Virus record (IMG/VR): IMGVR_UViG_3300030328_003747
Coordinates: 41,084-105,083 of that record
Origin: a virus
Reading direction: 5' to 3' (one strand)
DNA: 64,000 bases
Below are positions 3,651 through 43,964 of this stretch, in pieces (within the stretch, counting starts at the first letter, position 1; each line of letters starts with the position of its first letter). The notes under the pieces were generated by a model. It did not search any database. It was given only the letters and a program-made list of their open reading frames with translations, and had not been told where the DNA came from. Both the position numbers and the translations under genes were made by a program.

Positions 3651-3656
3651 TGAATA

Positions 3657-5875: not shown

Positions 5876-5883
5876 GAGAAAAA

Positions 5884-6312: not shown

Positions 6313-6332
6313 TAAGAACTTAGGAGTATTCT

Positions 6333-10029: not shown

Positions 10030-10050
10030 TAAAAAAGGTATAATTTTTTT

Positions 10051-10389: not shown

Positions 10390-10421
10390 TAAGCAATTAA
10401 ATAGGTTATTATAAGTGAGAT

Positions 10422-11903: not shown

Positions 11904-12652
11904 TGGCAGAACCGATAGACCCAATTTTAGCTGATCAGCGTACGGAAGAAATACTTTCTGACCCTCTCGTTAGGGCATTATTTTTTGGTTCTGAAGGGTC
12001 TCCTGGTTTTTATAATCAATTATTATCTATAGGACAAGACGCCAGAAGTCAGCTTGGGGGTGGATTGGGCATGTATCTGCCTTACTTACAAAGATCTGAA
12101 CAGTTAGGTGAGGATGCTTATTCTGCTATTACTGATGAAGATATTAGTAAATTTATGGACCCATATGAAGATTTGGTTGTTCAAAAATCAATTGATGACG
12201 CTCTTAGAGGTTATCAACAATCAGAAATAGGTCAAAGAGCAACAGATATTGCTAGAGGTGGAGAATCAGCATATGGCTCTAGAGCAGGTCTTTTTGCAGG
12301 AGAAAGAGCAAAAGGATTTGCAGAAGGATTAGGCAGTATGGTAAGTGGGCTAAGATCAAGAGGCTTTGATCAGGCAATAGATGAGGCTTATCGTGAAAAA
12401 GGTTTGTTTGGCCAAGGAGCTCAATTCCAACAAGGATTAGCTGGTCTTTACCCACAATATTATTATCAAGACGTTATGAGACCTTTAGGTTTAATGCAGG
12501 GTCTATACAATATGTTACCTCAATACGATCAAGGTAAAACAGCAATTTACAGTCAATATGGTATTCCTCAAGATCCTAAAGCAGGTGGCTTAGGAGCTGC
12601 ATTAAGCTTGTATTCAGGATTTGCTCCTAGATCAGGTTATGGAGATGCATAA
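11903..12652 (+). CDS. Internal virion / DNA pilot-like protein
   Basis: FMDPYEDLVV...AYGSRAG...LRSRGFDQA; Gly/Ala-rich hydrophobic C-terminus. Confidence 0.6.
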   Translation: MAEPIDPILADQRTEEILSDPLVRALFFGSEGSPGFYNQLLSIGQDARSQLGGGLGMYLPYLQRSEQLGEDAYSAITDEDISKFMDPYEDLVVQKSIDDALRGYQQSEIGQRATDIARGGESAYGSRAGLFAGERAKGFAEGLGSMVSGLRSRGFDQAIDEAYREKGLFGQGAQFQQGLAGLYPQYYYQDVMRPLGLMQGLYNMLPQYDQGKTAIYSQYGIPQDPKAGGLGAALSLYSGFAPRSGYGDA

Positions 12653-29944: not shown

Positions 29945-30469
29945 ATGAAAGTTGCATTTCCAAACAAAAAATACAATATAATTTACGCAGATCCGCCTTG
30001 GCAATATAAAAGGAATGGTAATCATTCTGCTGAATCTGTTTATGACGTAATGAATATTGAAGATATAAAAAATCTACCAATAAAAAATATGGTTGCAGAT
30101 CAGGCACATTTATATCTTTGGGTAACTAATCCATTTATACAAGAAGGGCTAGATGTTTGTAAGGCTTGGGGTTTTGAATATAAAACATTATTAACTTGGT
30201 TAAAAACATATAAAGACGGAACACCAGTTATGGGTATGGGTTATTACTTTAGGGGTTGTACTGAACATATTATTTTTGGTGTTAGAGGTAAAAAACTTTG
30301 TGAAAATAAAAGAACAAAAAATATAATTATTGAAAAAACAGGCAGGCACTCAGAAAAACCACACAACTTTAGAGATACTATTGTTGAGTGTAGTGGTGAT
30401 CTACCAAGAATAGAACTTTTTGCCCGACATAAAACAGACGGTTGGGATGTTTGGGGTAATGAAGTATGA
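29945..30469 (+). CDS. MT-A70-family DNA adenine methyltransferase
   Basis: IIYADPPW, HLYLWVT, WGFEY, HSEKP, IELFAR, WGNE. Confidence 0.9.
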   Translation: MKVAFPNKKYNIIYADPPWQYKRNGNHSAESVYDVMNIEDIKNLPIKNMVADQAHLYLWVTNPFIQEGLDVCKAWGFEYKTLLTWLKTYKDGTPVMGMGYYFRGCTEHIIFGVRGKKLCENKRTKNIIIEKTGRHSEKPHNFRDTIVECSGDLPRIELFARHKTDGWDVWGNEV

Positions 30470-32019
30470 AAGTATTAAGTTTGTTTGATGGTATGAGTTG
30501 TGGGCAGATAGCCCTAGATCAGCTCGGCATACCCGTTGAAACATATTACGCAAGTGAGATAGACAAGTATGCTATCCAAGTAACACAAGCCAACTACCCT
30601 AATACCGTTCAGGTGGGTGATGTTACTAACTTAGATCCAAAAGATTTTGCAGATGTTGATTTAATTATGGGTGGTAGCCCTTGCCAAGGTTTTTCTTTTG
30701 CAGGTAAACAGTTGGCTTTTGATGATCCAAGGTCGGCGCTGTTCTTTGAGTTTATTCGTTTGCTCAAAGCTATAAAGCCTAGATATTTCTTACTAGAGAA
30801 TGTGAGAATGAAGAAAGAGTTTTTAGATATAATTTCGCAAGAGGTGTCTAAGTGTTATCCAGAAATAGCTTTTGGTATAGAGCCTATTCTCATAAACAGT
30901 TCGCTTCTGAGTGCGCAATCAAGACAGAGATACTATTGGACCAACATACCTAACATACAACAACCAGAAGATAGGGGTATTGTGTTGAGAGATATATTGG
31001 AAGATGATTACGAAAGTGAAAGAGATAAGTCATATTGTATTGACGCTAATTACTTCAAGGGCGCAAGTGTTGAGCAATACAAAAAGAAATCAAGAAGGCA
31101 GTTAGTTAATAAGCCAAAAAAAGCATACGACATACCAAGAGAGATTCTTAAAGACAACGAAAGACAACGCAGAGTGTATGATCCAAGTGGCAAATCGCCT
31201 ACGATACTAGGCAGAAGTGATAGTCCAAAGATTACTACACCCAAACAAGACAAACAATTTGTCAGTAAGGAAGCTATCGAAAGGTATGTGCAGGACAAAG
31301 ATTCAGAATTTAACGACACTTACAACAAAAGAACAGTAAAGGGCGATAAGTCTACAACTATCAGACCAAATAATAATACAGCTAATATGTGGGTAAATGA
31401 AAAAGCAATAAGAGAAAGTAAACCAAAACAGGTTGGTAGTATTAAAGATGGTGGGCAGGGTAATAGAATATACTCACAAGATGGTAAATCTTCTACATTA
31501 TCTGCTCAATCAGGCGGTACTGCTGGTTCAGGTAATACGCTAGTTGAAACAAAGCCAAAACAGGTTGGTATGGCTGCTGACATCAAAGGACACGATATAT
31601 TGAGAAGAGTGTATAGCCCAGAGGGTAAATCTCCGACATTAAACAGTATGGGTGGTGGCAACAGAGAGCCAAAAGTGGTAGTTCAATCTTATAGAGAAGT
31701 TAGAACAGACGAAGCTAAGAAAATGCGTAGAATGGTAAGGCAAAAAACAGGCAAAGATCATACCCCTTATAGAGCAAAGAAATTAGAGCCAAGAAAAGAC
31801 GGTAAGGTTGGAACGGTCACTCCTAGCCTTAATAAAGACCACGAAATAAGTATTGAAAAAGAAGACCTTACTTGGAGAAAGCTAACACCTTTGGAGTGTG
31901 AAAGGTTGCAGACAGTCCCAGACAACTATACTAATCATGTGTCTAACACGCAGAGGTATAAGATGTTAGGCAACGGTTGGACTGTCGAAGTTATAAAGCA
32001 TATTTTAAAGAATGTCTAG
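30466..32019 (+). CDS. C5 cytosine DNA methyltransferase with long repeated variable region
   Basis: SLFDG, GGSPCQG, LENV, QSRQR, LTPLECERLQ, GNGW motifs. Confidence 0.92.
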   Translation: MKVLSLFDGMSCGQIALDQLGIPVETYYASEIDKYAIQVTQANYPNTVQVGDVTNLDPKDFADVDLIMGGSPCQGFSFAGKQLAFDDPRSALFFEFIRLLKAIKPRYFLLENVRMKKEFLDIISQEVSKCYPEIAFGIEPILINSSLLSAQSRQRYYWTNIPNIQQPEDRGIVLRDILEDDYESERDKSYCIDANYFKGASVEQYKKKSRRQLVNKPKKAYDIPREILKDNERQRRVYDPSGKSPTILGRSDSPKITTPKQDKQFVSKEAIERYVQDKDSEFNDTYNKRTVKGDKSTTIRPNNNTANMWVNEKAIRESKPKQVGSIKDGGQGNRIYSQDGKSSTLSAQSGGTAGSGNTLVETKPKQVGMAADIKGHDILRRVYSPEGKSPTLNSMGGGNREPKVVVQSYREVRTDEAKKMRRMVRQKTGKDHTPYRAKKLEPRKDGKVGTVTPSLNKDHEISIEKEDLTWRKLTPLECERLQTVPDNYTNHVSNTQRYKMLGNGWTVEVIKHILKNV

Positions 32020-32055: not shown

Positions 32056-32346
32056 ATGAAAGATATTGCAAACAAGATGAACAGCTATTTCAGAGAGCCA
32101 TCTCCAGGCGAAACTGCGAGAACTCTAGACGCACAGATCCACTTCAATAAATCACAAAATGTCGGGGTAGAAGAGTCTATCACTTGGGGTATGTCATACT
32201 TTTTCTCACGTCTTATACATGAAACAGGAGATATTAACCAGGCTATCAACATAATGGACACAATTATCTCTCATTATACTGAGCCAGAAGTGTATGAAGG
32301 CCTGTATCAAGAAATGCCTTTTTCTGAAGATTTTAACTACGACTGA
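32056..32346 (+). CDS. Hypothetical protein
   Basis: 96-aa ORF on the operon strand. Confidence 0.5.
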   Translation: MKDIANKMNSYFREPSPGETARTLDAQIHFNKSQNVGVEESITWGMSYFFSRLIHETGDINQAINIMDTIISHYTEPEVYEGLYQEMPFSEDFNYD

Positions 32347-32349
32347 TTA

Positions 32350-32440
32350 TTGTCATATTTTTGTCATAGTATTAGTGACGTCGGAAAGGTAGATGTATAA
32401 AGACTTTCCGATTAAAAACATTTTTTTCATTTTTGTCATA
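32350..32440. other. Iteron-like repeats plus hairpin (candidate origin or pac site)
   Basis: TTGTCATA at 32350, 32361 and 32433 around inverted repeat TCGGAAAG...CTTTCCGA. Confidence 0.4.
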
Positions 32441-32622
32441 GGGCTAGGACTAAATGTATATTAATTTAAATAAAAATCTTGACAGGACTTGCGCTACATT
32501 CTAAGATTGGAAGTGTATACATATAGGTTATGTAGGGGTTAGAACATCTTTGGGCCAGATTAGGCCCCTAATATAGCCACTATTCTTTGCATATACTATC
32601 AGTATCATCTAAAATTCCTTAC

Positions 32623-33204
32623 ATGACAGAAGAAGTTAAATCGGGGTTTCAACCTTTATTGGATTCTGCTGAAGATCCTGCGATAGAGTTTTTCAATCTT
32701 TCTAATAAATTAAATCGTATGCAGCGTGTGTTTGTTTGGAATGTTGTTAATAATCCCAATATGAGTTATGTAGAGTGTGCTAGGAAATCGGGGTACAAAG
32801 ACGCAAGGCAGTCGGCCTACAAATTACTAAAACATCCAGAAGTTAAGAAAGAAATTAATTATCTGATGGGTGAAGTGCGCAAGAAATATGAATTAAACCA
32901 GGATAGAGCAGTTAAGGATCTGTATGATATTAGGGATAAAGCATTAGAATCTGGCTCATTTAACGCTGCGATAGCTGCGCAAAACAGTTTGCTTAAGGTG
33001 GGTGGCCTAGTGGTAGATAAGAAAGAAGTTAGGTATGGCAAGATAGATCAGATGTCGAGAGCTGAAATCGAGAATAGATTAAAGCACTTAATGGGTGATG
33101 TTATCGAGGGGGAAATAACTGACGAATCTGAAGAAGATTTACCTAAGACCTCTGTTGTCGATATGGTCGAGCAAGAATCCCAAGAAAGCAAAGAAGATAA
33201 ATAG
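32623..33204 (+). CDS. terS: Terminase small subunit
   Basis: LNRMQRVFV...CARKSGY...AYKLLKHPEV HTH; AAIAA..LLKVGGL; start moved to MTEEVK. Confidence 0.75.
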   Translation: MTEEVKSGFQPLLDSAEDPAIEFFNLSNKLNRMQRVFVWNVVNNPNMSYVECARKSGYKDARQSAYKLLKHPEVKKEINYLMGEVRKKYELNQDRAVKDLYDIRDKALESGSFNAAIAAQNSLLKVGGLVVDKKEVRYGKIDQMSRAEIENRLKHLMGDVIEGEITDESEEDLPKTSVVDMVEQESQESKEDK

Positions 33205-33256
33205 CAGAGGCAGAAAGCACAAAGCTAAGACTACTACGGCTATTTTTACAAATGTT

Positions 33257-33526
33257 TTAATCGTTATAATACTCTCCTGTAATTATTCGCCTTAAGGTTT
33301 CGGTATCCCATTTAAAAGTTTCGGACACATAAGTGTCTATATACTCTCTAAAGCTATTCCTGGTATCAAATAAGACCACATCAAAACGGTTAGAGTCATC
33401 ATCTACACGAAGTTCGGCAAAGACAAACCAACCTATCTTTTTAACTCTGCCGAGATCCGATTCAACATAATCAAAATTATGTGCATTCAAGTAATCTAAG
33501 AAATCTTTTTTATCGTATTTCATCAT
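33257..33526 (-). CDS. Early hypothetical protein
   Basis: GGAGTGA-ATG coupling; acidic. Confidence 0.65.
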   Translation of the reverse strand: MMKYDKKDFLDYLNAHNFDYVESDLGRVKKIGWFVFAELRVDDDSNRFDVVLFDTRNSFREYIDTYVSETFKWDTETLRRIITGEYYND

Positions 33527-33735
33527 TCACTCCTTTTAAACATATTATTTATAAAATCTTCGTCATAATTAAGTTCTTCAAGATACTCTATAAATTCTTT
33601 TTTATTCTTATCTTCTACTTGAGATAAAAAGTGGTCTTTTAAAATTTCTGCTACATACTTCCAATCATCAAAAGAAGATTCGACTTGTTCTTCTGCCCAA
33701 GTTTCTTTTATTCTATCTAATACATCACTCATCAT
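33523..33735 (-). CDS. Early hypothetical protein
   Basis: GGAGTGA-ATG coupling; acidic. Confidence 0.65.
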   Translation of the reverse strand: MMSDVLDRIKETWAEEQVESSFDDWKYVAEILKDHFLSQVEDKNKKEFIEYLEELNYDEDFINNMFKRSE

Positions 33736-33863
33736 TCACTCCCCATAAAAAAGACTACATAAAAAACAACTAAGACCAACAAAGGTATCTTAGTGTATAG
33801 GTGGTATTTAATATTGTTGTTATAAACCCACTCATCAAGTTTAGTTAGCTTACCTTTCATCAT
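33732..33863 (-). CDS. Small early membrane peptide (43 aa, not in track)
   Basis: MMKGKLTKLDEWVY...IPLLVLVVFYVVFFMGSE; RBS and ATGA overlap. Confidence 0.55.
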   Translation of the reverse strand: MMKGKLTKLDEWVYNNNIKYHLYTKIPLLVLVVFYVVFFMGSE

Positions 33864-34008
33864 TCATCTCCTCATAACAAACACCACAAAGCATTTTATC
33901 TTTAGGCACTTCATCAATATTTTTATAACCTTTATCTTCATAATTGTTATAGTCCGTTATATAGTCGGCTTTATAACCACACTCATTACAACACCCTCTA
34001 CTCATCAT
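33850..34008 (-). CDS. Small zinc-finger-like protein (52 aa, not in track)
   Basis: CNEC...CGVC pairs; RBS. Confidence 0.6.
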   Translation of the reverse strand: MMSRGCCNECGYKADYITDYNNYEDKGYKNIDEVPKDKMLCGVCYEEMNDER

Positions 34009-34016
34009 TCACTTCC

Positions 34017-34211
34017 TTATGTGTATGTGTGTTCATATACAACATTCCCATTTTCATCAGTAATTTTGTAATGCAGATGTTCCATTTTTTCTGATAATAC
34101 TTCATCTACAACACCCTCATTATAAAGTTCCATTAGTTCTTCAAAATTCTTAGCTTGAAAATCTATTTGATATAAACCTGCTTCTCTAGTTATTTTATAT
34201 TTTTTCATCAT
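34017..34211 (-). CDS. Early hypothetical protein
   Basis: AGGAGAG RBS. Confidence 0.65.
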   Translation of the reverse strand: MMKKYKITREAGLYQIDFQAKNFEELMELYNEGVVDEVLSEKMEHLHYKITDENGNVVYEHTYT

Positions 34212-34218
34212 TCTCTCC

Positions 34219-34383
34219 TTATTTGTCGTATGACTTTTCTAGTTCAGTCGGTTTATATTTACGGATTTCGTTGGTTTCTTCATCTCCAAACAAAACATAT
34301 CCATCTTTAGTAAAAGCAAGACAAGAGCCAAAGATCGCTTGGCCTTTAACTTTAACTCTGTCGGTATATTTATAATCAATCAT
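34219..34383 (-). CDS. Early hypothetical protein (54 aa, not in track)
   Basis: MIDYKYTDRVKVKG...; AGGAGAG RBS. Confidence 0.55.
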   Translation of the reverse strand: MIDYKYTDRVKVKGQAIFGSCLAFTKDGYVLFGDEETNEIRKYKPTELEKSYDK

Positions 34384-34391
34384 TTTCTCTC

Positions 34392-34727
34392 CTATTCAAT
34401 CTCTTCAATATCTACGGTTAAGGAAGCAGAAATTTCTAAGGCATACCATACAAGTATGTTCCTTAGTTCTTCGTCATTACTGACAAACTCTCCACCATTT
34501 AAACTAGCAATATACTCTAATGGTGTTACTTTGCTTCCACATATATCATCATCAATTAAAGACCAAATATCTTCCTTTAAGAAGTCGTATGCTTTGGATA
34601 TTTCTTCAAGTGTTTCTAGTCCTTGAATACCACTAGAATCGCCTGAACATTCAGCGATAGTTTTGATATCTTCTTCTGTAAAGTTTTGGAGTAAGTAGTC
34701 GCTAATATTGTCTATTGGGTGGCTCAT
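34392..34727 (-). CDS. Early acidic hypothetical protein
   Basis: IAECSGDSSGI...NILVWYALE; coupled start. Confidence 0.65.
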   Translation of the reverse strand: MSHPIDNISDYLLQNFTEEDIKTIAECSGDSSGIQGLETLEEISKAYDFLKEDIWSLIDDDICGSKVTPLEYIASLNGGEFVSNDEELRNILVWYALEISASLTVDIEEIE

Positions 34728-35035
34728 TCTTCCATCTCCTCAAATTTAATATCGGTTATATCGTGATTATATAGTTGTATATTATGTTCTTCCTTAAAAG
34801 ACTGTTTAACACTTTCTCTATATTCTTCTTCTGTTTCACACTCTCTACCTATATCGGTAACAGTATATGTTATTGTGCTAGTCCACCTTTTCATTGATGA
34901 TTCTTTCACCTCAACAATTTCAAAATCTTCTACATCTCCAAAATCTTCAGAATTTTCAGCGATCTCTTGGGCTTCCTCTGTTGATTTAACTTCTACTCGT
35001 TTCTCTAAAGTCCATCTTAAAATGTATTCTTTCAT
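34724..35035 (-). CDS. Early acidic hypothetical protein
   Basis: Glu-rich; coupled to neighbours. Confidence 0.65.
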   Translation of the reverse strand: MKEYILRWTLEKRVEVKSTEEAQEIAENSEDFGDVEDFEIVEVKESSMKRWTSTITYTVTDIGRECETEEEYRESVKQSFKEEHNIQLYNHDITDIKFEEMEE

Positions 35036-35520
35036 TATTCTTTCTCCGTAAAAAATGCTTCTAAAGGTATAAACTTAGTCCAATAGTGCAGACTAGAATG
35101 ATAAGCATTTATATCTATCTCTGCCGTATCTAAAAATTTGCTTTCTGATACATACCATTGTCCTTCGGGTATATGTTCACAAGTAGCGAAGTAGTAAAGG
35201 TATTCAATATATAAATTACCTCTCATTTCGTTCATCATACTGTATTTATCAGGACTTGGTATTGGTTGGATATTTGACCAATCTTCTTTGGTGTGTCCCC
35301 AAGAGAAACCTCTGTCTTTGTAAAACTTGGTGTGTTCTTCGTCAGTACCGAGTTCAGATATATCGCCTTTACTTACTAGACTTGTAGCTTTATCTTTATC
35401 GTTGTAGTAGTTGTGTAGTATTTGTCCTACACCCTCGTTGATGTAACCGTCAAAATGACAGTACACTCTGATAATCGAGCCGTCATCTTTATCAACGGCT
35501 ATATTGCTTCTTGTTGACAT
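35035..35520 (-). CDS. Conserved phage early protein (STRS...YCHxDGY family)
   Basis: MSTRSNIAV...VYCHFDGY...GDISEL...EYLYYF. Confidence 0.75.
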   Translation of the reverse strand: MSTRSNIAVDKDDGSIIRVYCHFDGYINEGVGQILHNYYNDKDKATSLVSKGDISELGTDEEHTKFYKDRGFSWGHTKEDWSNIQPIPSPDKYSMMNEMRGNLYIEYLYYFATCEHIPEGQWYVSESKFLDTAEIDINAYHSSLHYWTKFIPLEAFFTEKE

Positions 35521-35552
35521 ATTTTCTTCTCCTTAAAATAGTTAACGGTTAT

Positions 35553-35580
35553 ATACTACTAGTTGTATACAGAATGTCAA
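35553..35580 (-). promoter_or_regulatory. Leftward early promoter with TAC-N5-GTA box
   Basis: TTGACA-16-TAGTAT on minus strand; box at 35557-35567. Confidence 0.7.
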
Positions 35581-35852
35581 CAGTTAATATAAATAAGTAT
35601 ATAGTTTTTATGGGGTATTGTGGGGGTAAATAGCACCCTTACCCTCTCTGTCGCTCTCTCGCAAAAGAAAAGCAGACAAGTCGGCTCTATATAAGTCGGA
35701 ACTGTCGGGACACATATAAAGCAGTCGGGTGGTTATTAGACACACTACTATTATAACACTATTCACCTCTCCAGGCACCTGGGATCGCCAGGCAAAGCCC
35801 TTCCTGGAAGAAATGTGGGGGATTAAATTAAACCACTTATTCTTTCGTTCCT

Positions 35853-35881
35853 CTTGACTTGTTGATTACTGTAGGTAAACT
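35853..35881 (+). promoter_or_regulatory. Early promoter 1
   Basis: CTTGACTTGTTGATTACTGTAGGTAAACT. Confidence 0.75.
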
Positions 35882-35914
35882 AATAGATAACTAATAATTA
35901 GAGGAGAAAATATT

Positions 35915-36229
35915 ATGATTAGTGAAAGAGAAGTTGACGAGATGATTAAACATCCAAAAACTCAGATTGAGAAAGTAGCCGTTCCTTACTTTCTAATGAT
36001 GACCTGTCCCGACGATATTGAAAACCAAGAAGAGATAATGAATACTTGTCTTGAAAGTTTACAGCAAGAATTACCTTTCTTGGTAAGTGAAATGGGTAGA
36101 GAAAAAGGTTTTACTAAAGCTAAAAACTTAGCCGTTGAAATGGCACTTGCAACTAATATGCCTTTCTATAAAGAAAACAAAGATTGGATAGAGTTGGCTT
36201 TAGGTGTTAAACCTAAGATTACTCACTAA
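35915..36229 (+). CDS. Early cassette protein 1
   Basis: Own promoter, GAGGAG RBS, downstream hairpin. Confidence 0.7.
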   Translation: MISEREVDEMIKHPKTQIEKVAVPYFLMMTCPDDIENQEEIMNTCLESLQQELPFLVSEMGREKGFTKAKNLAVEMALATNMPFYKENKDWIELALGVKPKITH

Positions 36230-36240
36230 GTCGGGATTAT

Positions 36241-36272
36241 AGTCGGGAGTTCTTTTAGGACTCTCGGCTTAA
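36241..36272 (+). terminator. Hairpin after cassette 1
   Basis: AGTCGGGAGT...ACTCTCGGCT stem with G-U pairs; short T tract. Confidence 0.5.
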
Positions 36273-36375
36273 TAAAAAAAAGTTTAAATAACACAATAGA
36301 CAACACGTCTTCTAGATCCTGGGTGATACGCTAGGTGATAGATCTTTTTCGTTTAAAAAATAGAAGCACTTAATG

Positions 36376-36404
36376 CTTGACTTCTTGGTTACTTGTGGTA
36401 GTCT
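36376..36404 (+). promoter_or_regulatory. Early promoter 2
   Basis: CTTGACTTCTTGGTTACTTGTGGTAGTCT. Confidence 0.75.
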
Positions 36405-36426
36405 GAAAGCTAAGGAGAATTAAAAA

Positions 36427-36660
36427 ATGAGTAAAAGAGAATTACCATTCGAAGTAGAGGTTGATAGTTTTAATGAACCTCAAACCATTAAAAACCCATT
36501 TTCTGGGGAAAGTATAGAAATACCTGCTGACGCAGTAGCCGTATATGATGTTGTAATAGGGACGCAATATATGGCCAAGCCCGATTGGGATTTAGTACGC
36601 AAAGGTTGTGATTGGTTCAAACAATATGAGCCAAAAGCATATATGGTGTTGCTTGACTAG
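36427..36660 (+). CDS. Early cassette protein 2
   Basis: NPFSGES...AVYDVVIG...WF..YEPKAYMVLLD; AAGGAG RBS. Confidence 0.75.
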   Translation: MSKRELPFEVEVDSFNEPQTIKNPFSGESIEIPADAVAVYDVVIGTQYMAKPDWDLVRKGCDWFKQYEPKAYMVLLD

Positions 36661-36670
36661 TCGGGATACT

Positions 36671-36701
36671 GTCGGGGCTCCGAAGGGGCCCTGGCTTTTT
36701 T
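36671..36701 (+). terminator. Intrinsic terminator after cassette 2
   Basis: GTCGGGGCTC-CGAAG-GGGCCCTGGC-TTTTTT. Confidence 0.7.
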
Positions 36702-36808
36702 GCCCTACGGGGTAATTAACACAATAAGATCACCTATTCCTACATTCCCTGGTGGATCTGTTCGTAGACATTCGCCTGGGTAAGCCTCAAAAATAAATGA
36801 AGAAAGTT

Positions 36809-36837
36809 CTTGACTTATTAGTTACATGTGGTAACCT
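36809..36837 (+). promoter_or_regulatory. Early promoter 3
   Basis: CTTGACTTATTAGTTACATGTGGTAACCT, containing perfect GTTAC-N5-GTAAC. Confidence 0.78.
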
Positions 36838-36855
36838 TGTTAATAAGGAGAGCAT

Positions 36856-37131
36856 ATGAAGGAGAAAGAAATAAAGACCATACTTGAAAAGGTTGGTTTC
36901 ATTAGAGAAGCTAAGAAGCACCAAAAACTTGTGGACTTAGAAACTTATATGAAAAAGTTTTCAATATCTGAAAACGAAATGTTGGCAGAAATAGATTTTT
37001 TTAACGAAGTTTATTTTGAAATTAACAGGATGTTCAAAACTGATTGGACTTACCTGGAAAGTGGCATGTTATTTTTTACAAAAAACGACGCACTAAGAGA
37101 AAGACTATTTCCAAAAAAGGAGAGTGTATGA
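36856..37131 (+). CDS. Early cassette protein 3a
   Basis: AAGGAG RBS. Confidence 0.65.
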   Translation: MKEKEIKTILEKVGFIREAKKHQKLVDLETYMKKFSISENEMLAEIDFFNEVYFEINRMFKTDWTYLESGMLFFTKNDALRERLFPKKESV

Positions 37132-37301
37132 AGGATAAAATTAAAGCTACGTACGAGGAAGTGATGGGCAATAACTTTGACCAACACTTAAGAGAGTTAT
37201 TCCGAAGGGGAGAAGTAGAGATTATCGAAGACAAAGGTCACGTTGACTTAAGCAGCCTTAGTTTGATTAATATTAAACAGAAGCTGAAGGAGTTGGACTG
37301 A
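37128..37301 (+). CDS. Early cassette protein 3b (start at MKDKIK)
   Basis: AGGAGAG RBS, ATGA overlap. Confidence 0.6.
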   Translation: MKDKIKATYEEVMGNNFDQHLRELFRRGEVEIIEDKGHVDLSSLSLINIKQKLKELD

Positions 37302-37366
37302 TGGAGTTTGTAATATTATTTATAGTTATCCTGGTGATTGGGATAGTTTTAGATCAGATCGGGTAA
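37301..37366 (+). CDS. 21-aa membrane peptide MEFVILFIVILVIGIVLDQIG
   Basis: AAGGAG RBS, TGATG overlap, almost entirely hydrophobic. Confidence 0.5.
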   Translation: MEFVILFIVILVIGIVLDQIG

Positions 37367-37529
37367 GTCGGGATCACGTATAAAGGTCGGAATCGGGAGT
37401 TAAATGGATCTCCCAACACTTAAGGTCACACTACCAGGTTGATGTGTATCGTCAGAGTTCTCCCTGGATTCCCTGGCAAGTGTGGCCACTTTTCTCGTTG
37501 AAAAAAAGATGGGTTATTTTTGTTCTAAC

Positions 37530-37559
37530 CTTGACTTAGTTTACAAGATGTAGTCTAAT
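37530..37559 (+). promoter_or_regulatory. Early promoter 4
   Basis: CTTGACTTAGTTTACAAGATGTAGTCTAAT. Confidence 0.7.
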
Positions 37560-37580
37560 ACTAATTAAGGAGAACGAATT

Positions 37581-37802
37581 ATGATGAAATTAGATTTTCA
37601 AATAATAGACGAGAATGGGAATAGAATCCCAGGACACGAAACTGAGTTGCAAGACTTAGTGATAAACGGTCGCCACTTAATTGAGAATGGCGAGTGGAAT
37701 GAAGAAGTAGCTAACCAAGCTATCGAAGATACCCAAAGGTATATTGCCGAGCAACAAGCTGAGGCAGAGTTCGAAGATAGAGGGGGAATGCTAGATGGAT
37801 AA
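37581..37802 (+). CDS. Early cassette protein 4 (very acidic)
   Basis: AAGGAG RBS; Glu/Asp-rich. Confidence 0.65.
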   Translation: MMKLDFQIIDENGNRIPGHETELQDLVINGRHLIENGEWNEEVANQAIEDTQRYIAEQQAEAEFEDRGGMLDG

Positions 37803-37823
37803 ATAATCAAAGGTATCATCCTT

Positions 37824-37853
37824 GAGGGACGACTTCGGTCGTCCTTTTTTTTT
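37824..37853 (+). terminator. Intrinsic terminator ending early region
   Basis: GGACGAC-TTCG-GTCGTCC-T9. Confidence 0.9.
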
Positions 37854-38123
37854 GGGACTCTATTGGTCAGATGAGTCGGGAAGCAAATCGGGTTTTTCGG
37901 ATCAGCGACACCCCATTTGCCCTACGGGGTATATACACTATACTTTACACAACGTTTCTCTCGTACGAACATTTCATTTTTTAGAAAGGGTCCCATATGG
38001 GGGTATATATGTTATATTTTATTTTGGGAATGGCGTTTACTTCGCTTTTACTAGCTCTTCTCCTTCACCAAGGTAAGCGTCATCCCTCTTGCTTTTAACG
38101 GTTAGAATGTTTAGTATCACGAT

Positions 38124-38396
38124 ATGGATCCACAAATGATGAACCAACAAATGTCAGGAATGGTTGCCCCTGATGAAATACAAGCGGAAATCAATAATCT
38201 ATCTGGAGAAGACAAGATGGCGGCTAAACAAGCTTTAATGGAGATTAGAGCGATTATTGAACAAATGATGGCTCAAGGTGCTAGCGAAGAAGAGATTATG
38301 CAAATGCTTTCTGAACTTGGAATCACTATTGAGCAACTAGAATTTGCTGAAAGATTATTTTCAGAAGAAGACAATAGCTTAGGAATTAGTATATAA
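38124..38396 (+). CDS. Small acidic Met/Gln-rich protein
   Basis: First ORF of the late + strand block. Confidence 0.6.
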   Translation: MDPQMMNQQMSGMVAPDEIQAEINNLSGEDKMAAKQALMEIRAIIEQMMAQGASEEEIMQMLSELGITIEQLEFAERLFSEEDNSLGISI

Positions 38397-39944: not shown

Positions 39945-42326
39945 ATGTTTGGGGTAGAAGACACTCGACCTAAAAAAAGTAAGTTATCTAAAACTTTAAA
40001 AGAATATAAAGCTAGAAGAGCAGAAGCTTTAGCTCCCGTAAAAGAAAAAATAGACCAAATACAATCCTTAATTGATGAGGGTAAGAATAGAGAAGCTTAC
40101 CGTATTTTTGAAGAGCTCCCACTTGCTGATCAGCTAGCAGTTAGTTTAGCCCCTGGTGTGGGTGACGCACTTGCAGTTTTTGAAACTAAGGAATTTGGTA
40201 CTAGAGGGGGTGAGCGTTTTGAAGAAGGTGATGTTCTTGGTGGTTTAGGTAATTATTTACTTTCAGGACTTTCAGGAATTTCTACTATTCCTTTTTTTGG
40301 CGCAGTAGGAGATGTGGCTAAGATTGGAGTTAAGGGTATAGGTAGAGCTGCTAGAACGGCAGACGATATGGGTGGTGGACCTTCATCTGTAAAAATAGAC
40401 GATCCAAGAGCAAATGAATATGCAGGAACTAGACCAGAAATTCGTCCAGTTGATACGGAAAATATGCAATTTAAAGCAATTACAGAGGAGCCCCCTTCCT
40501 CTGGTTTTGGGTTAATATCAGGCACTAGAGAATTTCTTCAAAATTTACCTAACCGAGATAAACCAAAAAATATAGAAAGTTTAATATCTCAAATAAAAAA
40601 ACATAATCCTAGATATGAAGGAGAGCTTAGAGGTTTAAAAGTTCTTGATGATAACGGAAAAATAAGCCAAGAATTTAAAGATTACTTTAAAGCGCTTCCA
40701 GAATATTCTGAGGGCAAGATACCGCCAAATGCATTTGATGCATATTTGGCAAGAAATCAAAAAGATTTATTCAATATTCAAGAGGTTCCTCAGGAACATT
40801 TTGCATCTCCTGGGTACGGAGATATTATTGATGAGGTAGAAACACAAAGAGTTTATAGAATTAAGGGTGTTGATCCAGGTAAATCAGGAAATATTGGACC
40901 ATTACATTACAAAAAAGATGCTGAGATGTTACATGACGGTAAAATACTTCGCTATCCTGACTATTATTCAATGGATTCTACTGATGTTCGAAACACATCT
41001 TTAGGTAATGAACTGAGGGTTAACAGAGTTCAGTCTGATTATGTGGAAGAAATAGGCAAAATTACAGAAAAAAGAAAAATAGAGGGAGAAAGGCAATCGC
41101 CCTATTTGTCTGACGGTAAAGAAGAATTTTTAAAACCACCTACCGTAGATGTAATTGAAAAAAAACTTGCAGCTGATCTTGATAAAACAAATAAACTTGC
41201 TAAAGAAATAAATGAATTAAAGTATAGTAGGTTTGACGATATGTTTAATGCGGATGCAAGTCCAAAGTTAGCTACTGATATTGACCCTAAAAATATGAGC
41301 ACTAGACTAACAAAAGAAGAAGGCACAAGACTTAATCTTTTAGAATTAGACCACCAATCAGCTTCAGATGCACTTGAGAAAAAAATAAAAGATTTGGCTC
41401 CAGATAGGGCACTAGCTAATACTAAAATAAGAGAAATAGCAGCTGGAAAAGTATCTGAATTTGTAATGCCTCCTGGACTAGAAAATATTTTTAAATTTTT
41501 AAAAGCTCGTACAAAAATGTTAGAAGATAGTTCTGGCAAATCTAATCCTTTAAGATTTGATGCTTCAGCTTATGCGGGAATAGGAGAAGCTCTTGACCCA
41601 AACCTATTAGATTCAACTTTTGGTTTGCCATACGACAATTTTAAGCTTAAGTTCAACCCTGAACTTTTTACAGGTACTAAAACTGACCCACTTTCTTTAA
41701 CAGTAAAGGGTGAAAAAACTTTAGATGACATAATTGATAGACTTAATCAGAGCGTCATTGAATCTAACGAAGCTATAAATTTAAGAAATCAAGACCTACA
41801 TTTAAAAGATCCTTATGCTACTGATGTATCATCAAAATCAGAAATTTTACCAACTCGAAACTTAATAAATTTAGCAGCGCAAAATCCTGATATAGATTAT
41901 CTTACTATGTATCCTCAAAAAATATTAAAAAGTGAAGATGTAAGTCAAAGATATAGGACAAATAAAAAAAATCAAGGACATTACAACGATATAGTTACTG
42001 AAACAAGAAGGGTTCTTAAAGAGTTGGGCGTAGATAGAAATGCATTAGATGTTAAAAAAATTGACAAAAACTATACAAAAGATTTTGGTGTTGACCAAAA
42101 AATGGTGCCTTTGAAAAGTCTTGATGTGGATCATTTTCTAGACCCATTTAACCAAGGTTATGACCTAGATTTTAAGGTTCCTGTAGACGACAAATTAAAA
42201 GTTACTGAAAGTTATGTGCTTGATTTAGAGCCTATCAGAAAAGCAATAATAGAAGACGGTAAAAGAATTAAAGCATTCAAATATGGGGGATTAGCTAATA
42301 TAGATAGATTATTAAATAATTTATGA
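39945..42326 (+). CDS. Large putative internal virion protein
   Basis: APGVGDALA amphipathic region, RVNRVQSD, C-terminal FKYGG. Confidence 0.55.
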   Translation: MFGVEDTRPKKSKLSKTLKEYKARRAEALAPVKEKIDQIQSLIDEGKNREAYRIFEELPLADQLAVSLAPGVGDALAVFETKEFGTRGGERFEEGDVLGGLGNYLLSGLSGISTIPFFGAVGDVAKIGVKGIGRAARTADDMGGGPSSVKIDDPRANEYAGTRPEIRPVDTENMQFKAITEEPPSSGFGLISGTREFLQNLPNRDKPKNIESLISQIKKHNPRYEGELRGLKVLDDNGKISQEFKDYFKALPEYSEGKIPPNAFDAYLARNQKDLFNIQEVPQEHFASPGYGDIIDEVETQRVYRIKGVDPGKSGNIGPLHYKKDAEMLHDGKILRYPDYYSMDSTDVRNTSLGNELRVNRVQSDYVEEIGKITEKRKIEGERQSPYLSDGKEEFLKPPTVDVIEKKLAADLDKTNKLAKEINELKYSRFDDMFNADASPKLATDIDPKNMSTRLTKEEGTRLNLLELDHQSASDALEKKIKDLAPDRALANTKIREIAAGKVSEFVMPPGLENIFKFLKARTKMLEDSSGKSNPLRFDASAYAGIGEALDPNLLDSTFGLPYDNFKLKFNPELFTGTKTDPLSLTVKGEKTLDDIIDRLNQSVIESNEAINLRNQDLHLKDPYATDVSSKSEILPTRNLINLAAQNPDIDYLTMYPQKILKSEDVSQRYRTNKKNQGHYNDIVTETRRVLKELGVDRNALDVKKIDKNYTKDFGVDQKMVPLKSLDVDHFLDPFNQGYDLDFKVPVDDKLKVTESYVLDLEPIRKAIIEDGKRIKAFKYGGLANIDRLLNNL

Positions 42327-43783
42327 CATTACAAAGCTTATCAGATGCCGAGCTTAGAGAGGCGCTGCTACTAAAAGAACGTTTAGAAGTTCTTAAAAAT
42401 CAAGAAACCTGCCAAGAAGGTTTTATGGATTTTATCGAGCACATATGGCCTGAATTTATCTGCGGTCGACATCATAAAATTTTTGCTCAGAAGCTAGAAG
42501 ATATAGCTACTGGCAAAATTAACCGTTTAATTGTTAACATGCCACCAAGACACACTAAGTCTGAATTTGCTTCTACTTACTTTCCTGCTTGGGTTATGGG
42601 TAAATACCCTAATAAAAAAATTATGCAAACAACCCATACTGGAGAACTTGCTGTTAGGTTTGGTCGTAAAGTTAGAAACTTAATGGATACTGAAGAATAT
42701 TCGGCCATCTTTCCTCAAGTAAATTTATCGGCAGATTCCAAGTCTGCTGGTCGTTGGGAAACAAATAAAGGTGGTGAGTATTTCGCTGCGGGTGTAGGGG
42801 GAGCTATTACAGGTCGAGGTGCAGACTTACTTATAATAGATGACCCACATTCAGAACAAGATGCTTTGAGCTTAACGGCTATGGAGAGTGCTTGGGAATG
42901 GTACACATCTGGACCACGACAACGTTTACAACCTAAAGGAGCAATAGTTTTAGTTATGACTAGATGGAGTCAGGTAGATCTAACTCAAAAATTATTAGAC
43001 GCTCAAAAAGAACCTTTAGCAGATCAATGGGAAGTAATAGAGTTTCCAGCTATTTTTCCTGATACCGAAAAACCGTTATGGCCTGAGTTTTGGCCTATTG
43101 ATGAATTGCTTAAAGTTAAAGCTTCTCTACCTAATATTAAATGGAATGCTCAATGGATGCAGACACCAACGGCTGAAGAAGGTTCAATTATTAAGCGTGA
43201 ATGGTGGAATGAATGGAAACATGAGTCACTTCCTAATGTACAATATATTATTCAATCATATGATACAGCGTTCAGTAAGAAACAGACTGCTGACTATAGC
43301 GCTATTAGCACTTGGGGTGTTTTTAGACCTTCAGAGGATGCCCCTGATTCGATTATTCTTTTGGACTGCCAGAAGGGTAGGTGGGATTTTCCAGATTTGA
43401 AAAAAACAGCTATGGATGAATACAAATATTGGGAACCAGATATGGTGTTAATAGAAGCTAAAGCATCAGGAACTCCACTAACACACGAGCTTAGAAGGCT
43501 TGGGATTCCTGTCGTCAATTACACCCCATCAAGAGGACAAGACAAACATTCTCGTATGCATTCAGTTGCGCCTATTTTTGAGTCAGGTTTGGTATGGGCA
43601 CCACAAAAAGCTTTTGCTGATGATATGATTGAAGAATGTGCGTCATTTCCTTTCGCAGCCAACGATGATTTATGTGATACAATGACTCAAGCTTTGATGC
43701 GTTTCCGTGAAGGTGGATTAGTTTCTTTAGGAGATGATTATGAAGAGGAAGACAAAGCTCCTATAAAGAGGGTATATTATTAG
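42323..43783 (+). CDS. terL: Terminase large subunit
   Basis: NMPPRHTKSE, GRGADLLIIDDP, VMTRW, QSYDTA, IEAKASG, DDLCDTMTQA. Confidence 0.95.
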   Translation: MTLQSLSDAELREALLLKERLEVLKNQETCQEGFMDFIEHIWPEFICGRHHKIFAQKLEDIATGKINRLIVNMPPRHTKSEFASTYFPAWVMGKYPNKKIMQTTHTGELAVRFGRKVRNLMDTEEYSAIFPQVNLSADSKSAGRWETNKGGEYFAAGVGGAITGRGADLLIIDDPHSEQDALSLTAMESAWEWYTSGPRQRLQPKGAIVLVMTRWSQVDLTQKLLDAQKEPLADQWEVIEFPAIFPDTEKPLWPEFWPIDELLKVKASLPNIKWNAQWMQTPTAEEGSIIKREWWNEWKHESLPNVQYIIQSYDTAFSKKQTADYSAISTWGVFRPSEDAPDSIILLDCQKGRWDFPDLKKTAMDEYKYWEPDMVLIEAKASGTPLTHELRRLGIPVVNYTPSRGQDKHSRMHSVAPIFESGLVWAPQKAFADDMIEECASFPFAANDDLCDTMTQALMRFREGGLVSLGDDYEEEDKAPIKRVYY

Positions 43784-43784: not shown

Positions 43785-43964
43785 ATGATTCAGTTCTATA
43801 TGACAGAATACGAAAAAGACGGTAAAAAAGTAGATGGCCCTTTGATTATGGCTCCGAATGCAGAGGTTGCAAGTATTCAGGCAAAAGATTTAAAATTACA
43901 ATTAGTTGGCGAAATGTTCCCTTTAATGGATATTGCTAGCTACAAAGAAAGGCAGATACATTAA
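43785..43964 (+). CDS. Small hypothetical protein (59 aa, not in track)
   Basis: MIQFYMTEYEKDGKKVDGPLIMA...; fills TerL-portal gap with TAATG overlap. Confidence 0.6.
   Translation: MIQFYMTEYEKDGKKVDGPLIMAPNAEVASIQAKDLKLQLVGEMFPLMDIASYKERQIH

What the first reader, a model, noticed from the sequence alone, without database searches (positions are those of the whole stretch)
35679..37931. Early gene cassettes separated by spacers with a fixed order of short-motif clusters
Seen: the spacers are not alignable as simple repeats, yet show the same order: 2-4 same-strand (G/A)TCGG (35680, 35695, 35704, 35724; 36230, 36242; 36660, 36671; 37358, 37367, 37386, 37392; 37875, 37887), then ACAC motifs (e.g. 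35755, 36290, 36302, 36718, 37415, 37427), then CCWGG (35771, 35778, 35788, 35803; 36318; 36748, 36775; 37434, 37463, 37472) often with GATC, then a TCGT motif, promoter and RBS. Four CCWGG in 37 bp is far above chance in such AT-rich DNA. The fifth spacer lacks CCWGG. Inference: a multi-protein binding grammar, such as decoy or landing sites for restriction/methylation or other defence proteins, loading sites for injected phage proteins, or packaging/ejection signals. CCWGG and GATC are the classic Dcm and Dam targets.
Basis: partly seen in the sequence, partly recalled or inferred. Interest (0 to 1): 0.75.

Follow-up and report, generated by a model that had tools for sequence, protein, structure and literature searches.

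The report
Modular phage spacers with polar boxes
The spacers between small early genes of this marine phage are diverged copies of one conserved regulatory module, and their (G/A)TCGG motif belongs to a one-stranded field of TCGGG boxes found just upstream of the DNA-packaging genes in a whole family of phages.

Summary
In the five spacers RTCGG (13 vs 2.3 expected), ACAC (12 vs 3.6) and CCWGG (11 vs 1.7) exceed all 1000 simulations. GATC is marginal and TCGT is not enriched. The order boxes, ACAC, CCWGG/GATC, A-tract, near-consensus sigma-70 promoter, strong RBS recurs in 26 spacers of 8 related genomes whose cassette DNA does not otherwise align.

The spacers are paralogous copies of one composite module, some with a covariation-supported post-stop hairpin. 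They bound small ORFan cassettes that are shuffled between relatives. This works like the PeSL cassettes of T4-like phages.

The RTCGG motif is a separate layer. Its core, TCGGG, forms a strand-polar field:
- All 15 forward copies in the window lie in 32162-37888.
- In a complete 55-kb relative, 40 of 41 forward copies lie in the 11 kb upstream of terL.
- The boxes keep the terL orientation where local genes are inverted, and they sit inside terS coding sequence in all three frames.

This points to a signal read on DNA. What reads it is unknown: small-terminase (TerS)/pac loading, Chi-like exonuclease control or replication are candidates. A Dam/Dcm role is untested, although the phage encodes two methyltransferases. 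Other first readers of this scan noted the same stretch.

The parts
32161..37892 (+). Polar TCGGG/GTCGGG box field. All 15 forward-strand TCGGG of the 64-kb window lie here. The 13 reverse-complement copies are spread over the window.
   Evidence: the same geometry in G001 and G002:C4/L308
32623..33204 (+). Small terminase gene (Terminase_2, PF03592). It carries 2 boxes here. Its homologues in relatives carry 3-6 boxes in all three frames.
35553..35580 (-). Sigma-70-like promoter (TTGACA-16-TAGTAT) of the leftward block of small genes 33257-35520
   Evidence: pattern match only
35640..35914 (+). Spacer S1, in the divergent intergenic region. Four boxes at 35680-35729, ACAC boxes at 35740-35758, four CCWGG at 35771-35807, and promoter P1 at 35854-35881 (TTGACT-16-TAAACT).
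35915..36229 (+). Cassette gene A (104 aa, ORFan). Absent from the 93%-TerL relatives.
36230..36426 (+). Spacer S2. Two boxes abut the stop codon (36230, 36242). Plus-strand hairpin HP1 at 36236-36273 has box 2 as its 5' arm. ACACAATAG at 36290, CCTGG at 36318, A-tract, promoter P2 at 36377-36404.
36427..36660 (+). Cassette gene B (77 aa). It is the first cassette in relatives L127-L130 and L053, and it lies on the opposite strand in G001.
36661..36855 (+). Spacer S3. Boxes at 36660 and 36671. Terminator-like hairpin at 36671-36695 followed by T6, then a second small hairpin at 36700-36715 (CTACGGGGTA box). ACACAATAA at 36719, CCTGG at 36748 and 36775, promoter P3 at 36810-36837.
36856..37366 (+). 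Cassette genes C (91 aa) and D (57 aa), and a 21-aa hydrophobic ORF (37301-37366) whose 3' end overlaps the first S4 boxes. The tiny ORF is conserved in relatives.
37358..37580 (+). Spacer S4. Four boxes at 37358-37397. Long hairpin HP2 at 37424-37487, with ACAC/GTGTG as outer arms and CCAGG/CCTGG as inner arms. A-tract, promoter P4 at 37531-37556.
37581..37802 (+). Cassette gene E (73 aa), conserved in all close relatives
37824..37853 (+). Intrinsic terminator that ends the early rightward unit
   Evidence: conserved in relatives
37854..38123 (+). Spacer S5, a non-coding block conserved at about 72-75% in relatives. GGGACTCTAT, two boxes (37875, 37887), CTACGGGGTA, ACAC boxes, no CCWGG. A possible promoter for the late operon at 37980-38009 (TTTAGA-18-TATATA, with a GC-rich palindrome in the spacer).
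   Evidence: the promoter is inference from sequence only
38124..38396 (+). Gene F (90 aa), the first gene of the rightward operon that runs on to terL (42323-43783) and portal (43964-46426)
29945..32019 (+). Two adjacent DNA methyltransferase genes: MT-A70 N6-adenine type (29945-30469) and a 517-aa C5-cytosine type (30466-32019). They bear on the CCWGG/GATC reading.

Best explanation
Two superimposed layers explain the spacers.

Layer 1: a composite early-gene expression and insulation module.
- Each spacer is a diverged copy of one module of about 200 bp.
- Its parts, in order: a hairpin directly after the upstream stop codon (a terminator or attenuator in S3, probably an RNA 3'-end or processing hairpin elsewhere); an upstream regulatory stretch with ACACAA boxes and CCWGG/GATC sites about 60 bp upstream of the -35; an A-rich UP-like tract; a near-consensus sigma-70 promoter (CTTGACTT, with TG-extended -10); and a strong Shine-Dalgarno sequence.
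- Because the copies are similar, recombination between them adds, deletes and swaps the small ORFan genes they flank. This works like the PeSL cassettes of T4-like phages.
- Shown: paralogy, conservation, the hairpin, cassette shuffling.
- Inferred: promoter activity, early timing, and recombination as the shuffling mechanism.

Layer 2: a separate, polar DNA signal.
- The (G/A)TCGG motif has the core TCGGG. It is scattered as arrays of 2-5 copies wherever the sequence tolerates it: after stop codons, after terminators, in the divergent promoter gap, and inside terS and other genes.
- It covers the 6-12 kb that lie immediately upstream of the late packaging operon, always on the terL-sense strand.
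- Shown: polarity, restriction to this zone, independence from reading frame and from local gene orientation, and conservation across the family.
- Inferred: it is read on DNA by a machine that moves or assembles directionally at the packaging end. The most likely readers are TerS/terminase loading or a Chi-like control of an end-processing nuclease or recombinase.
For: Motif enrichment and strand bias.

Paralogy and promoter consensus.

Relatives at 93% TerL identity:
- They do not align by blastn in the cassette region.
- They keep the same element order.
- The 80% TerL relative L308 also keeps it.

Cassette content and number differ between relatives, with the spacers as boundaries.

Hairpin HP1:
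- 96.6% of cells paired and 6 pairs with compensatory changes; 0/500 shuffles reach this; slid controls give 32-55% paired.
- It folds on the plus strand only (z -3.3 to -3.7, against about 0 for the complement).

Hairpin HP2 in the S4-type spacer, with compensatory CCAGAC/GTCTGG and CCTGG/CCAGG swaps.

Polar field:
- Window: 15/15 forward TCGGG lie in 32162-37888.
- G001: 40/41 forward copies lie in 1674-12461, upstream of terL at 15588, against 16 evenly spread reverse copies. The gene B homologue and its neighbours are on the opposite strand.
- G002:C4 shows the same geometry.
- TCGGG is enriched inside terS against synonymous-codon shuffles, in all three frames, in six relatives.
- Arrays occur in distant relatives L191 and L215.

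PeSL definition: PMC2839356 and PMC4122927.

Precedent for one-stranded short motifs clustered at the end next to the terminase genes: PMC12315714.
Against: - No transcript, promoter-activity or protein-binding data exist for this uncultured phage.
- In the window itself terS holds only 2 boxes, which is not significant.
- The field is far wider (5.7-11 kb) than any described pac site.
- GTCGGG is rare and only mildly over-represented in the one candidate host bin tested (obs/exp 1.2-1.3), and the phage has its own recombination module. Both weaken the Chi-like reading.
- In plus-oriented cassettes box 2 is always the 5' arm of an RNA-type hairpin with G-U pairs. An RNA-level role for some boxes is therefore not excluded.
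- Only two genomes (G001 and L246) show boxes opposite to local genes.
- Many of the 26 spacers come from close relatives and are not independent.
Confidence: 0.6

Rival explanations
1. The boxes are operator or roadblock sites for a phage regulator that shuts off or insulates early transcription units. This would resemble the asymmetric stoperators of mycobacteriophage L5. ACAC and CCWGG would be further factor sites of the same switch.
For: Arrays sit at transcription-unit boundaries: after stop codons, after terminators and in the divergent promoter gap. They are strand-specific and in direct repeat.
Against: The boxes also lie inside coding sequence in every frame. They keep the terL orientation where the local genes are inverted. 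Their number varies from about 4 to over 20 between near relatives. No conserved DNA-binding regulator was found next to them.
Confidence: 0.15
2. The CCWGG/GATC sites upstream of each early promoter are a methylation-sensitive switch. It would be set by the phage's own C5 and N6-adenine methyltransferases, so that incoming and newly replicated DNA differ in early promoter activity.
For: 25 of 26 spacers hold CCWGG, at a median of 59 bp upstream of the -35. CCAGG and CCTGG are both enriched (32 and 14, against 3.9 and 2.6 expected), while CCSGG and GGWCC are absent. GATC is 61 vs 16.7 and AGATCT is 10 vs 1.3. Two methyltransferase genes lie 3.6 kb upstream.
Against: The methyltransferase specificities are unknown. 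One relative (L053 S4) has lost CCWGG on both arms while keeping the pairing. In relatives the conserved word is longer (CCAGRCGCA). S5 lacks the sites.
Confidence: 0.15
3. The boxes are iterons of a replication origin zone, bound by the phage PrimPol/helicase. Comparable cases are SV40 T-antigen pentamers, AAV Rep tetramers and the octamers of P4 alpha in ori and crr.
For: They are short direct repeats of 5-8 bp period next to AT-rich tracts (L191 5900-6035, L215 1676-1760). A PrimPol plus helicase-type (DUF3987) protein is encoded at 24064-26187.
Against: Arrays occur at many places over 6-12 kb, including inside genes. No single ori-like architecture is conserved. The association is with the terL-proximal side, not with the replication genes.
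Confidence: 0.08
4. The pattern is chance or a neutral by-product, for example slippage-prone microsatellite-like TCGGG repeats and recent tandem duplication of one spacer.
For: Tandem (TCGGG)n tracts look slippage-prone, and the spacers are paralogues.
Against: 0/1000 simulations reach the observed counts. The blocks are conserved while the flanks have diverged beyond alignment. There is enrichment inside coding sequence against synonymous shuffles. The strand bias is absolute across genomes that share only 59-61% TerL identity.
Confidence: 0.02

Closest known systems
PeSL (promoter-early stem-loop) mobile regulatory cassettes of T4-like phages (Arbiol, Comeau & Krisch 2010, PMC2839356; Comeau et al. 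2014, PMC4122927)
   Same: [quoted passage not shown] Each has a near-consensus sigma-70 early promoter, an AT-rich tract upstream of the -35 and a stem-loop with G-T pairs. They are repeated between small ORFans in a hyperplastic region, and close relatives differ by gain, loss or replacement of the flanked ORFs.
   Different: The host phage is not T4-like; its terL is closest (61-64%) to that of pelagiphage HTVC027P, of the HTVC023P type. The modules are about 200 bp rather than about 100 bp. They carry extra conserved boxes (ACACAA, CCWGG/GATC, CTACGRGGTA). The stem-loop sits at the stop codon, not within or next to the promoter. Mini-circles are untested.
Terminally clustered, co-oriented Chi sites of LLS-type lambdoid phages and Pseudomonas phage MD8 (PMC12315714)
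   Same: A short G-rich asymmetric word, almost exclusively on one strand, concentrated in the kilobases that adjoin the packaging site and terminase genes on the circular map, with the same strand sense relative to the terminase genes.
   Different: The word is not known to be any host's Chi. In the one candidate host bin it is rare and only 1.2-1.3-fold over expectation. This phage has its own Sak4-like annealase, SSB and exonuclease, whereas the Chi-rich lambdoids lack a Rec module. The physical DNA ends are unknown.
pac sites built of repeated short motifs in or next to the small-terminase gene (SPP1 pacL/pacR boxes, P1 pac hexamers, P22 pac in gene 3; from general knowledge)
   Same: Direct repeats of a short motif inside and beside terS, co-oriented with packaging genes, in a phage whose TerS is of the SPP1-like Terminase_2 family.
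   Different: Known pac sites span at most a few hundred bp. This field spans 5.7-11 kb with 15-40 boxes, and in some relatives (L215) none lies in or next to terS.
Stoperators of mycobacteriophage L5 and cluster A phages (from general knowledge)
   Same: Many copies of an asymmetric site in short intergenic gaps near stop and start codons, all in one orientation.
   Different: Stoperators are 13 bp, are oriented with transcription and are spread genome-wide. These boxes are 5-6 bp, ignore local transcription direction and are confined to one zone.

Membership tests
PeSL-type composite promoter/stem-loop cassette | Near-consensus sigma-70 early promoter with an AT-rich tract upstream of the -35 | tested here: met
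   CTTGACTT-N-GTTAC-N-(TG)-TAnnCT at 35853, 36376, 36809 and 37530, the only four copies in the record. A-tracts lie at about -45 to -55. This is sequence evidence only; activity was not measured.
PeSL-type composite promoter/stem-loop cassette | Adjacent stable stem-loop (terminator or attenuator) | tested here: met
   HP1 in S2, S3 and the relatives' S2' is supported by covariation. The S3 hairpin is terminator-like. HP2 occurs in S4. S1 has none.
PeSL-type composite promoter/stem-loop cassette | Repeated between small ORFans in a variable region; relatives differ by indels or replacements bounded by the modules | tested here: met
   Cassette maps of 7 genomes. The cassette region is not alignable, while terS, S5 and terL align at 72-82%.
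PeSL-type composite promoter/stem-loop cassette | Occurs in T4-like myoviruses | tested here: not met
   terL is closest to Pelagibacter phage HTVC027P and 023Pt_psg01 (61-64%). Complete relatives are 53-55 kb.
PeSL-type composite promoter/stem-loop cassette | Recombination between modules yields mini-circles | not testable with these tools
   Needs inverse PCR on infected cells or virions.
Chi-like polar anti-exonuclease/recombination sites (LLS type) | Strong single-strand orientation and clustering next to the packaging end | tested here: met
   Window 15/15 forward copies in the zone. G001 has 40/41 forward copies in the 11 kb upstream of terL, with 16 reverse copies spread. The physical end itself is not mapped.
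Chi-like polar anti-exonuclease/recombination sites (LLS type) | The motif is the host's Chi: over-represented and skewed in the host chromosome | tested here: inconclusive
   The host is unknown. In 400 kb of the bin that holds a related phage contig (G002), TCGGG obs/exp is 1.20 and GTCGGG is 1.31, with no sense/antisense bias. GTCGGG is rarer than its reversed control in 4 bins.
Chi-like polar anti-exonuclease/recombination sites (LLS type) | The phage lacks its own recombination module | tested here: not met
   Sak4-like annealase, SSB and a PD-(D/E)XK exonuclease lie at 26608-29151.
pac site / TerS recognition repeats | Repeated motif in or adjoining terS, co-oriented with it | tested here: met
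   There is significant enrichment inside terS in L129, L134, L191, L192, L286 and L300. Large arrays lie just downstream of terS in G001 and L249. The window's own terS holds only 2 boxes.
pac site / TerS recognition repeats | Compact site (at most a few hundred bp) where packaging starts | tested here: not met
   The field spans 5.7 kb here and 10.8 kb in G001.
pac site / TerS recognition repeats | TerS binds the repeats; ends of the packaging series map there | not testable with these tools
   Needs EMSA or footprinting and virion end mapping.
Stoperator-type repressor sites | Orientation tied to the direction of transcription | tested here: not met
   In G001 and L246 the boxes lie between genes of the opposite strand.
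Dam/Dcm-type methylation-regulated promoter region | Cluster of palindromic methylation targets in the regulatory region | tested here: met
   Enrichment of CCWGG and GATC, with CCSGG absent.
Dam/Dcm-type methylation-regulated promoter region | A cognate methyltransferase acting on those sites | tested here: inconclusive
   C5 (PF00145) and MT-A70 (PF05063) genes are present. Their target sequences are unknown.

The most novel reading that the evidence does not exclude
The TCGGG field is a previously undescribed polar DNA signal of a widespread group of marine phages. It would mark the last 6-12 kb before the packaging operon for a directional machine: terminase loading or headful control, first-entering DNA, or a host end-processing nuclease whose recognition word in marine bacteria is unknown. 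The CCWGG/GATC sites of the early-promoter modules would be read through the phage's own two methyltransferases. Together these would give an epigenetically timed, modular early region.
Probability: 0.25. Interest if true: 0.8.

Novelty: new variant of a known kind. Interest (0 to 1): 0.62.

Why it matters
Phages whose terL resembles that of the HTVC023P-type pelagiphages belong to a group reported as among the most abundant viruses in the ocean (PMC12753301), yet their regulation and packaging signals are unstudied.

- The work extends PeSL-style modular shuffling of early ORFan genes beyond T4-like phages. That gives a mechanism for the rapid turnover of host-takeover and anti-defence genes in this group.
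- It defines a simple, searchable signature: one-stranded TCGGG arrays upstream of terL. The signature orients and delimits the early region in uncultured genomes.
- That signature poses a concrete question for bench work: which protein reads it, and does it act in packaging, end protection or replication?
- It supplies candidate strong portable promoters and insulators for low-GC marine hosts.

Tried and rejected
DNA searches:
- Megablast and blastn of the region against 50,697 phage records found nothing.
- Pattern scans of IMG/VR with box pairs or triplets returned mostly unrelated high-GC contigs. They had to be filtered by GC and box count.
- The 512-aa neighbour gave no related loci.

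RNA families:
- Rfam had nothing above threshold in 32-39 kb or in the L127 leader.

Ideas tested and dropped:
- A genome-wide phage-specific promoter (GGGGGTA): it is not repeated elsewhere.
- A box as the operator of the terS promoter: it is present in L134 but not in the window.
- The W region as a general inverted repeat: only the S4-type reaches significance, so I withdrew that generalisation.
- Boxes purely as hairpin arms: the S1, S4 and S5 boxes are unpaired.

Ideas considered from the sequence and set aside:
- G-quadruplex: possible in the relatives' S1' arrays and in (TCGGG)5 of L215, but not in the window.
- Type III restriction evasion by strand bias: the opposite orientation is common elsewhere in the genome.
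- Integron attC-like sites: no integrase was seen, and each cassette has its own promoter.

Host identification:
- terL homologues in bacterial bins were spread over many phyla, which points to mis-binning. The best was a Gammaproteobacteria TMED104 bin.
- The Chi-likeness test in that bin was inconclusive.

Cultured relative:
- HTVC027P has no TCGGG field.


Full report
**Where the region lies.** The window is bases 41084-105083 of a 105,083-bp IMG/VR virus record. The finding lies between two gene blocks.
- To the left is a leftward block of small genes (33257-35520).
- To the right is a rightward operon: gene F (38124), two large unknown proteins, terL (42323-43783, phrog_38) and portal.
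- A Terminase_2 small terminase gene lies at 32623-33204.
- Two DNA methyltransferase genes lie just upstream of it: MT-A70 at 29945-30469 and a C5 type at 30466-32019.
- terL is closest (61-64%) to that of Pelagibacter phage HTVC027P and phage 023Pt_psg01, so this is a marine phage.
- No DNA match exists among isolated phages.

**Observation.** I compared the five spacers with 1000 first-order Markov simulations of the same spacers.

| Motif | Observed | Expected | Simulations reaching observed |
|---|---|---|---|
| RTCGG | 13 | 2.3 | 0/1000 |
| GTCGGG | 8 | 0.4 | 0/1000 |
| ACAC | 12 | 3.6 | 0/1000 |
| CCWGG | 11 | 1.7 | 0/1000 |
| GATC | 8 | 3.8 | 35/1000 |
| TCGT | 7 | 4.4 | 165/1000 |

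- The spacers hold no reverse-complement copy of RTCGG.
- The 8 GTCGGG are 8 of the 9 copies in the whole record.
- GATC is marginal and TCGT is not enriched.
- The four CCWGG at 35771-35807 are the densest such cluster in the record.
- The 8-mer CTTGACTT occurs four times in 105 kb, each at a promoter-like site of the form CTTGACTT-N-GTTAC-N-(TG)-TAnnCT, followed by AAGGAG and a start codon.
- The spacers do align in blocks, so they are diverged paralogues. The fixed order of motifs follows from common descent plus selection on the blocks.

**Relatives.**
- Seven IMG/VR contigs with 93% (one 86%) TerL identity extend far enough upstream.
- By blastn they align with the window only in terS, in S5 plus gene F, and in terL, at 72-82%. 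The cassette region does not align.
- Even so, each relative has the same sequence of elements: a four-box array in the divergent gap; two boxes abutting the stop codon of the next cassette; three to five boxes overlapping the end of a tiny hydrophobic ORF; and two boxes after the final terminator. Each box group except the one after the final terminator is followed by ACACAA boxes, CCWGG/GATC, an A-tract and a TTGAC promoter.
- An 80% TerL relative, binned with a Gammaproteobacteria MAG (L308), shows the same.
- Over 26 promoter-bearing spacers of 8 genomes:
  - CCAGG is 32 against 3.9 expected.
  - CCTGG is 14 against 2.6.
  - CCSGG is 0 against about 6.
  - GATC is 61 against 16.7.
  - ACACAA is 32 against 2.1.
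  - TCGGG is 70 against 7.9.
  - 25 of 26 spacers have a CCWGG, at a median of 59 bp upstream of the -35.
- These spacers are not independent samples, because several genomes are close relatives.

**Cassettes.**
- Gene content between the spacers differs. The window has A | B | C+D+tiny ORF | E. L129 has B | G+tiny ORF | E+H+I. L134 has J | K+G+tiny ORF | E+H'+I.
- The window has four promoters and the 93% group has three.
- None of the small proteins matches Pfam or a named PHROG.
- This is the behaviour described for PeSL modules of T4-like phages: a strong sigma-70-like promoter, an AT-rich tract and a stem-loop between ORFans of hyperplastic regions, acting as recombination linkers (PMC2839356 and PMC4122927).

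**Hairpins.**
- In S2, S3 and the relatives' S2', the second box is the 5' arm of a hairpin that starts a few bases after the stop codon.
- In the relatives the first box also pairs, with the conserved CTCTACGA box.
- The consensus fold has 19 pairs, and 6 of them show compensatory changes.
- 96.6% of cells are paired, no shuffle out of 500 reaches this, and slid controls give 32-55% paired.
- It folds only on the plus strand, because of G-U pairs (z -3.3 to -3.7 against about 0).
- The S3 copy is followed by T6 and scores as a terminator. The others are followed by A-runs and are not canonical terminators.
- In the S4-type spacer the ACAC box and CCWGG are the outer and inner arms of a second long hairpin. 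L053 has CCAGAC/GTCTGG, so pairing is kept and CCWGG is lost. L127 swaps CCTGG and CCAGG.
- A general test for perfect inverted repeats in this region is significant only for the S4 type, so this does not explain CCWGG in S1-S3.
- The boxes of S1, S4 and S5 are unpaired.

**The boxes are a separate layer.**
- The core of the box is TCGGG.
- All 15 forward-strand TCGGG of the window lie in 32162-37888. The 13 reverse-complement copies are spread.
- A second pattern scan of IMG/VR found further low-GC contigs with one-stranded arrays, for example L191 with 20 forward and 0 reverse. Several of them carry terS homologues at 34-68% identity.
- L191 has four box doublets flanking a 72-bp AT-rich tract in its divergent gap, and more boxes after a terminator.
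- L215 (TerL 59%) has (TCGGG)5 in its divergent gap, boxes in a terminator loop and three more after it.
- Inside terS, TCGGG is enriched against synonymous-codon shuffles in six relatives: 0-3 of 2000 shuffles reach the observed count in five of them, and 14 of 2000 in the sixth. The boxes sit in all three frames, with almost none on the other strand. The window's own terS has only two.
- The complete 55,446-bp genome G001 (99-bp end overlap; TerL 61%) has 41 forward TCGGG. Forty of them lie in 1674-12461, just upstream of terL at 15588. Its 16 reverse copies are evenly spread.
- In G001 the gene B homologue and its neighbours lie on the opposite strand, yet the boxes between them keep the terL sense. 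Boxes also sit inside a helicase gene and a Mom-like gene.
- The 53-kb contig G002:C4 shows the same geometry.
- The polarity therefore follows the packaging genes, not local transcription or reading frame. This argues for a signal read on DNA.

**What reads the boxes.** I could not decide this.
- *Terminase loading.* In favour: the boxes lie in and beside terS, in a phage with an SPP1-type TerS. Against: the field is much wider than any known pac site.
- *A Chi-like role.* In favour: there is a direct geometric precedent. LLS-type lambdoid phages carry 20 or more co-oriented Chi sites clustered at the end next to the terminase genes (PMC12315714).
- *A Chi-like role, against:*
  - The host is unknown.
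  - terL homologues sit in bins of many phyla.
  - In four candidate bins GTCGGG is rarer than its reversed control.
  - In 400 kb of the best bin TCGGG is only 1.2-fold over expectation, with no strand bias relative to genes.
  - The phage has its own annealase, SSB and exonuclease.
- *Origin iterons for the PrimPol-helicase, or roadblock operators.* Both remain possible but fit the distribution less well.
- *Cultured relative.* HTVC027P has no TCGGG field. Its transcriptome places genes beside its terS and its long intergenic gap in early-to-middle classes (PMC12753301). This is only loose support for calling this region early.

**CCWGG and GATC.**
- Both W variants are enriched and CCSGG is absent. 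That suits a palindromic recognition unit.
- The phage encodes a C5 and an N6-adenine methyltransferase, so a methylation-sensitive switch is not excluded.
- Against a simple Dcm/Dam reading: the phage is marine; CCWGG is not depleted in the genome (120 copies); the conserved word in relatives is longer (CCAGRCGCA); and one relative keeps pairing but not the site.

**Verdict.** The spacers are a PeSL-like modular early-gene system in a marine phage that is not T4-like. Superimposed on them is a family-wide, strand-polar TCGGG field upstream of the packaging operon. Other first readers of this scan noted the same stretch (e1-6038872, -873, -874), and their readings agree with these tests.

Noticed in passing
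whole record G000 (window 1-64000 plus 41 kb upstream): The 105-kb record may be a join of two phages. Complete relatives are 53-55 kb (G001, G002:C4). About 3.7 kb at genome 1.6-5.2 kb recurs inverted at 59.6-63.3 kb. The record starts and ends inside a repetitive fibre-like gene.
   Followed up: partly
L127:640-960: A non-coding leader of about 330 nt, GC-rich and looking structured, lies between promoter P2' and the next gene in one relative. It has no Rfam match.
   Followed up: partly
window 37854-38123 (S5) and its orthologues: A 270-bp non-coding block is conserved at 72-75% in relatives. It includes GGGACTCTAT, TACACAATACTTTACACAA and a GC-rich palindrome (GGGTCCCATATGGGGG) between -35- and -10-like hexamers ahead of the late operon. 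Gene F has no visible Shine-Dalgarno sequence.
   Followed up: partly
window 37301-37366: A 21-aa hydrophobic ORF (MEFVILFIVILVIGIVLDQIG) is conserved in position and character in all close relatives. Its 3' end overlaps the box array. L053 has a natural deletion that removes the boxes.
   Followed up: no
window 29945-32019: Two overlapping methyltransferase genes: MT-A70 (174 aa) and a 517-aa C5 enzyme with a very long variable region.
   Followed up: partly
window 26608-29151: A recombination module: Sak4-like annealase, SSB and a PD-(D/E)XK exonuclease (DUF3799), with a nucleotide-kinase-like gene in between.
   Followed up: no
L174:8875-9010 and L176:8923-9010: A perfect 16-bp tandem repeat (ATCGTCTAAT...), 6-9 copies, lies about 1 kb upstream of terL in a 61% TerL lineage.
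   Followed up: no
L188 (HTVC027P) about 8140-8170: The 550-bp divergent intergenic gap of the cultured pelagiphage carries AGCTTGA/GGCTTG repeats. GGCTTG occurs 10 times upstream of terL and once downstream on the same strand. This may be a different polar word in that lineage.
   Followed up: no
G001 (L305) 4149-4601: A Mom-like DNA modification gene (phrog_1384) lies inside the box field of the 55-kb relative and itself carries five boxes.
   Followed up: no
window 34795-34885 and genome 33342-33432: A direct repeat of about 90 bp links the leftward small-gene block to the first 41 kb of the record.
   Followed up: no
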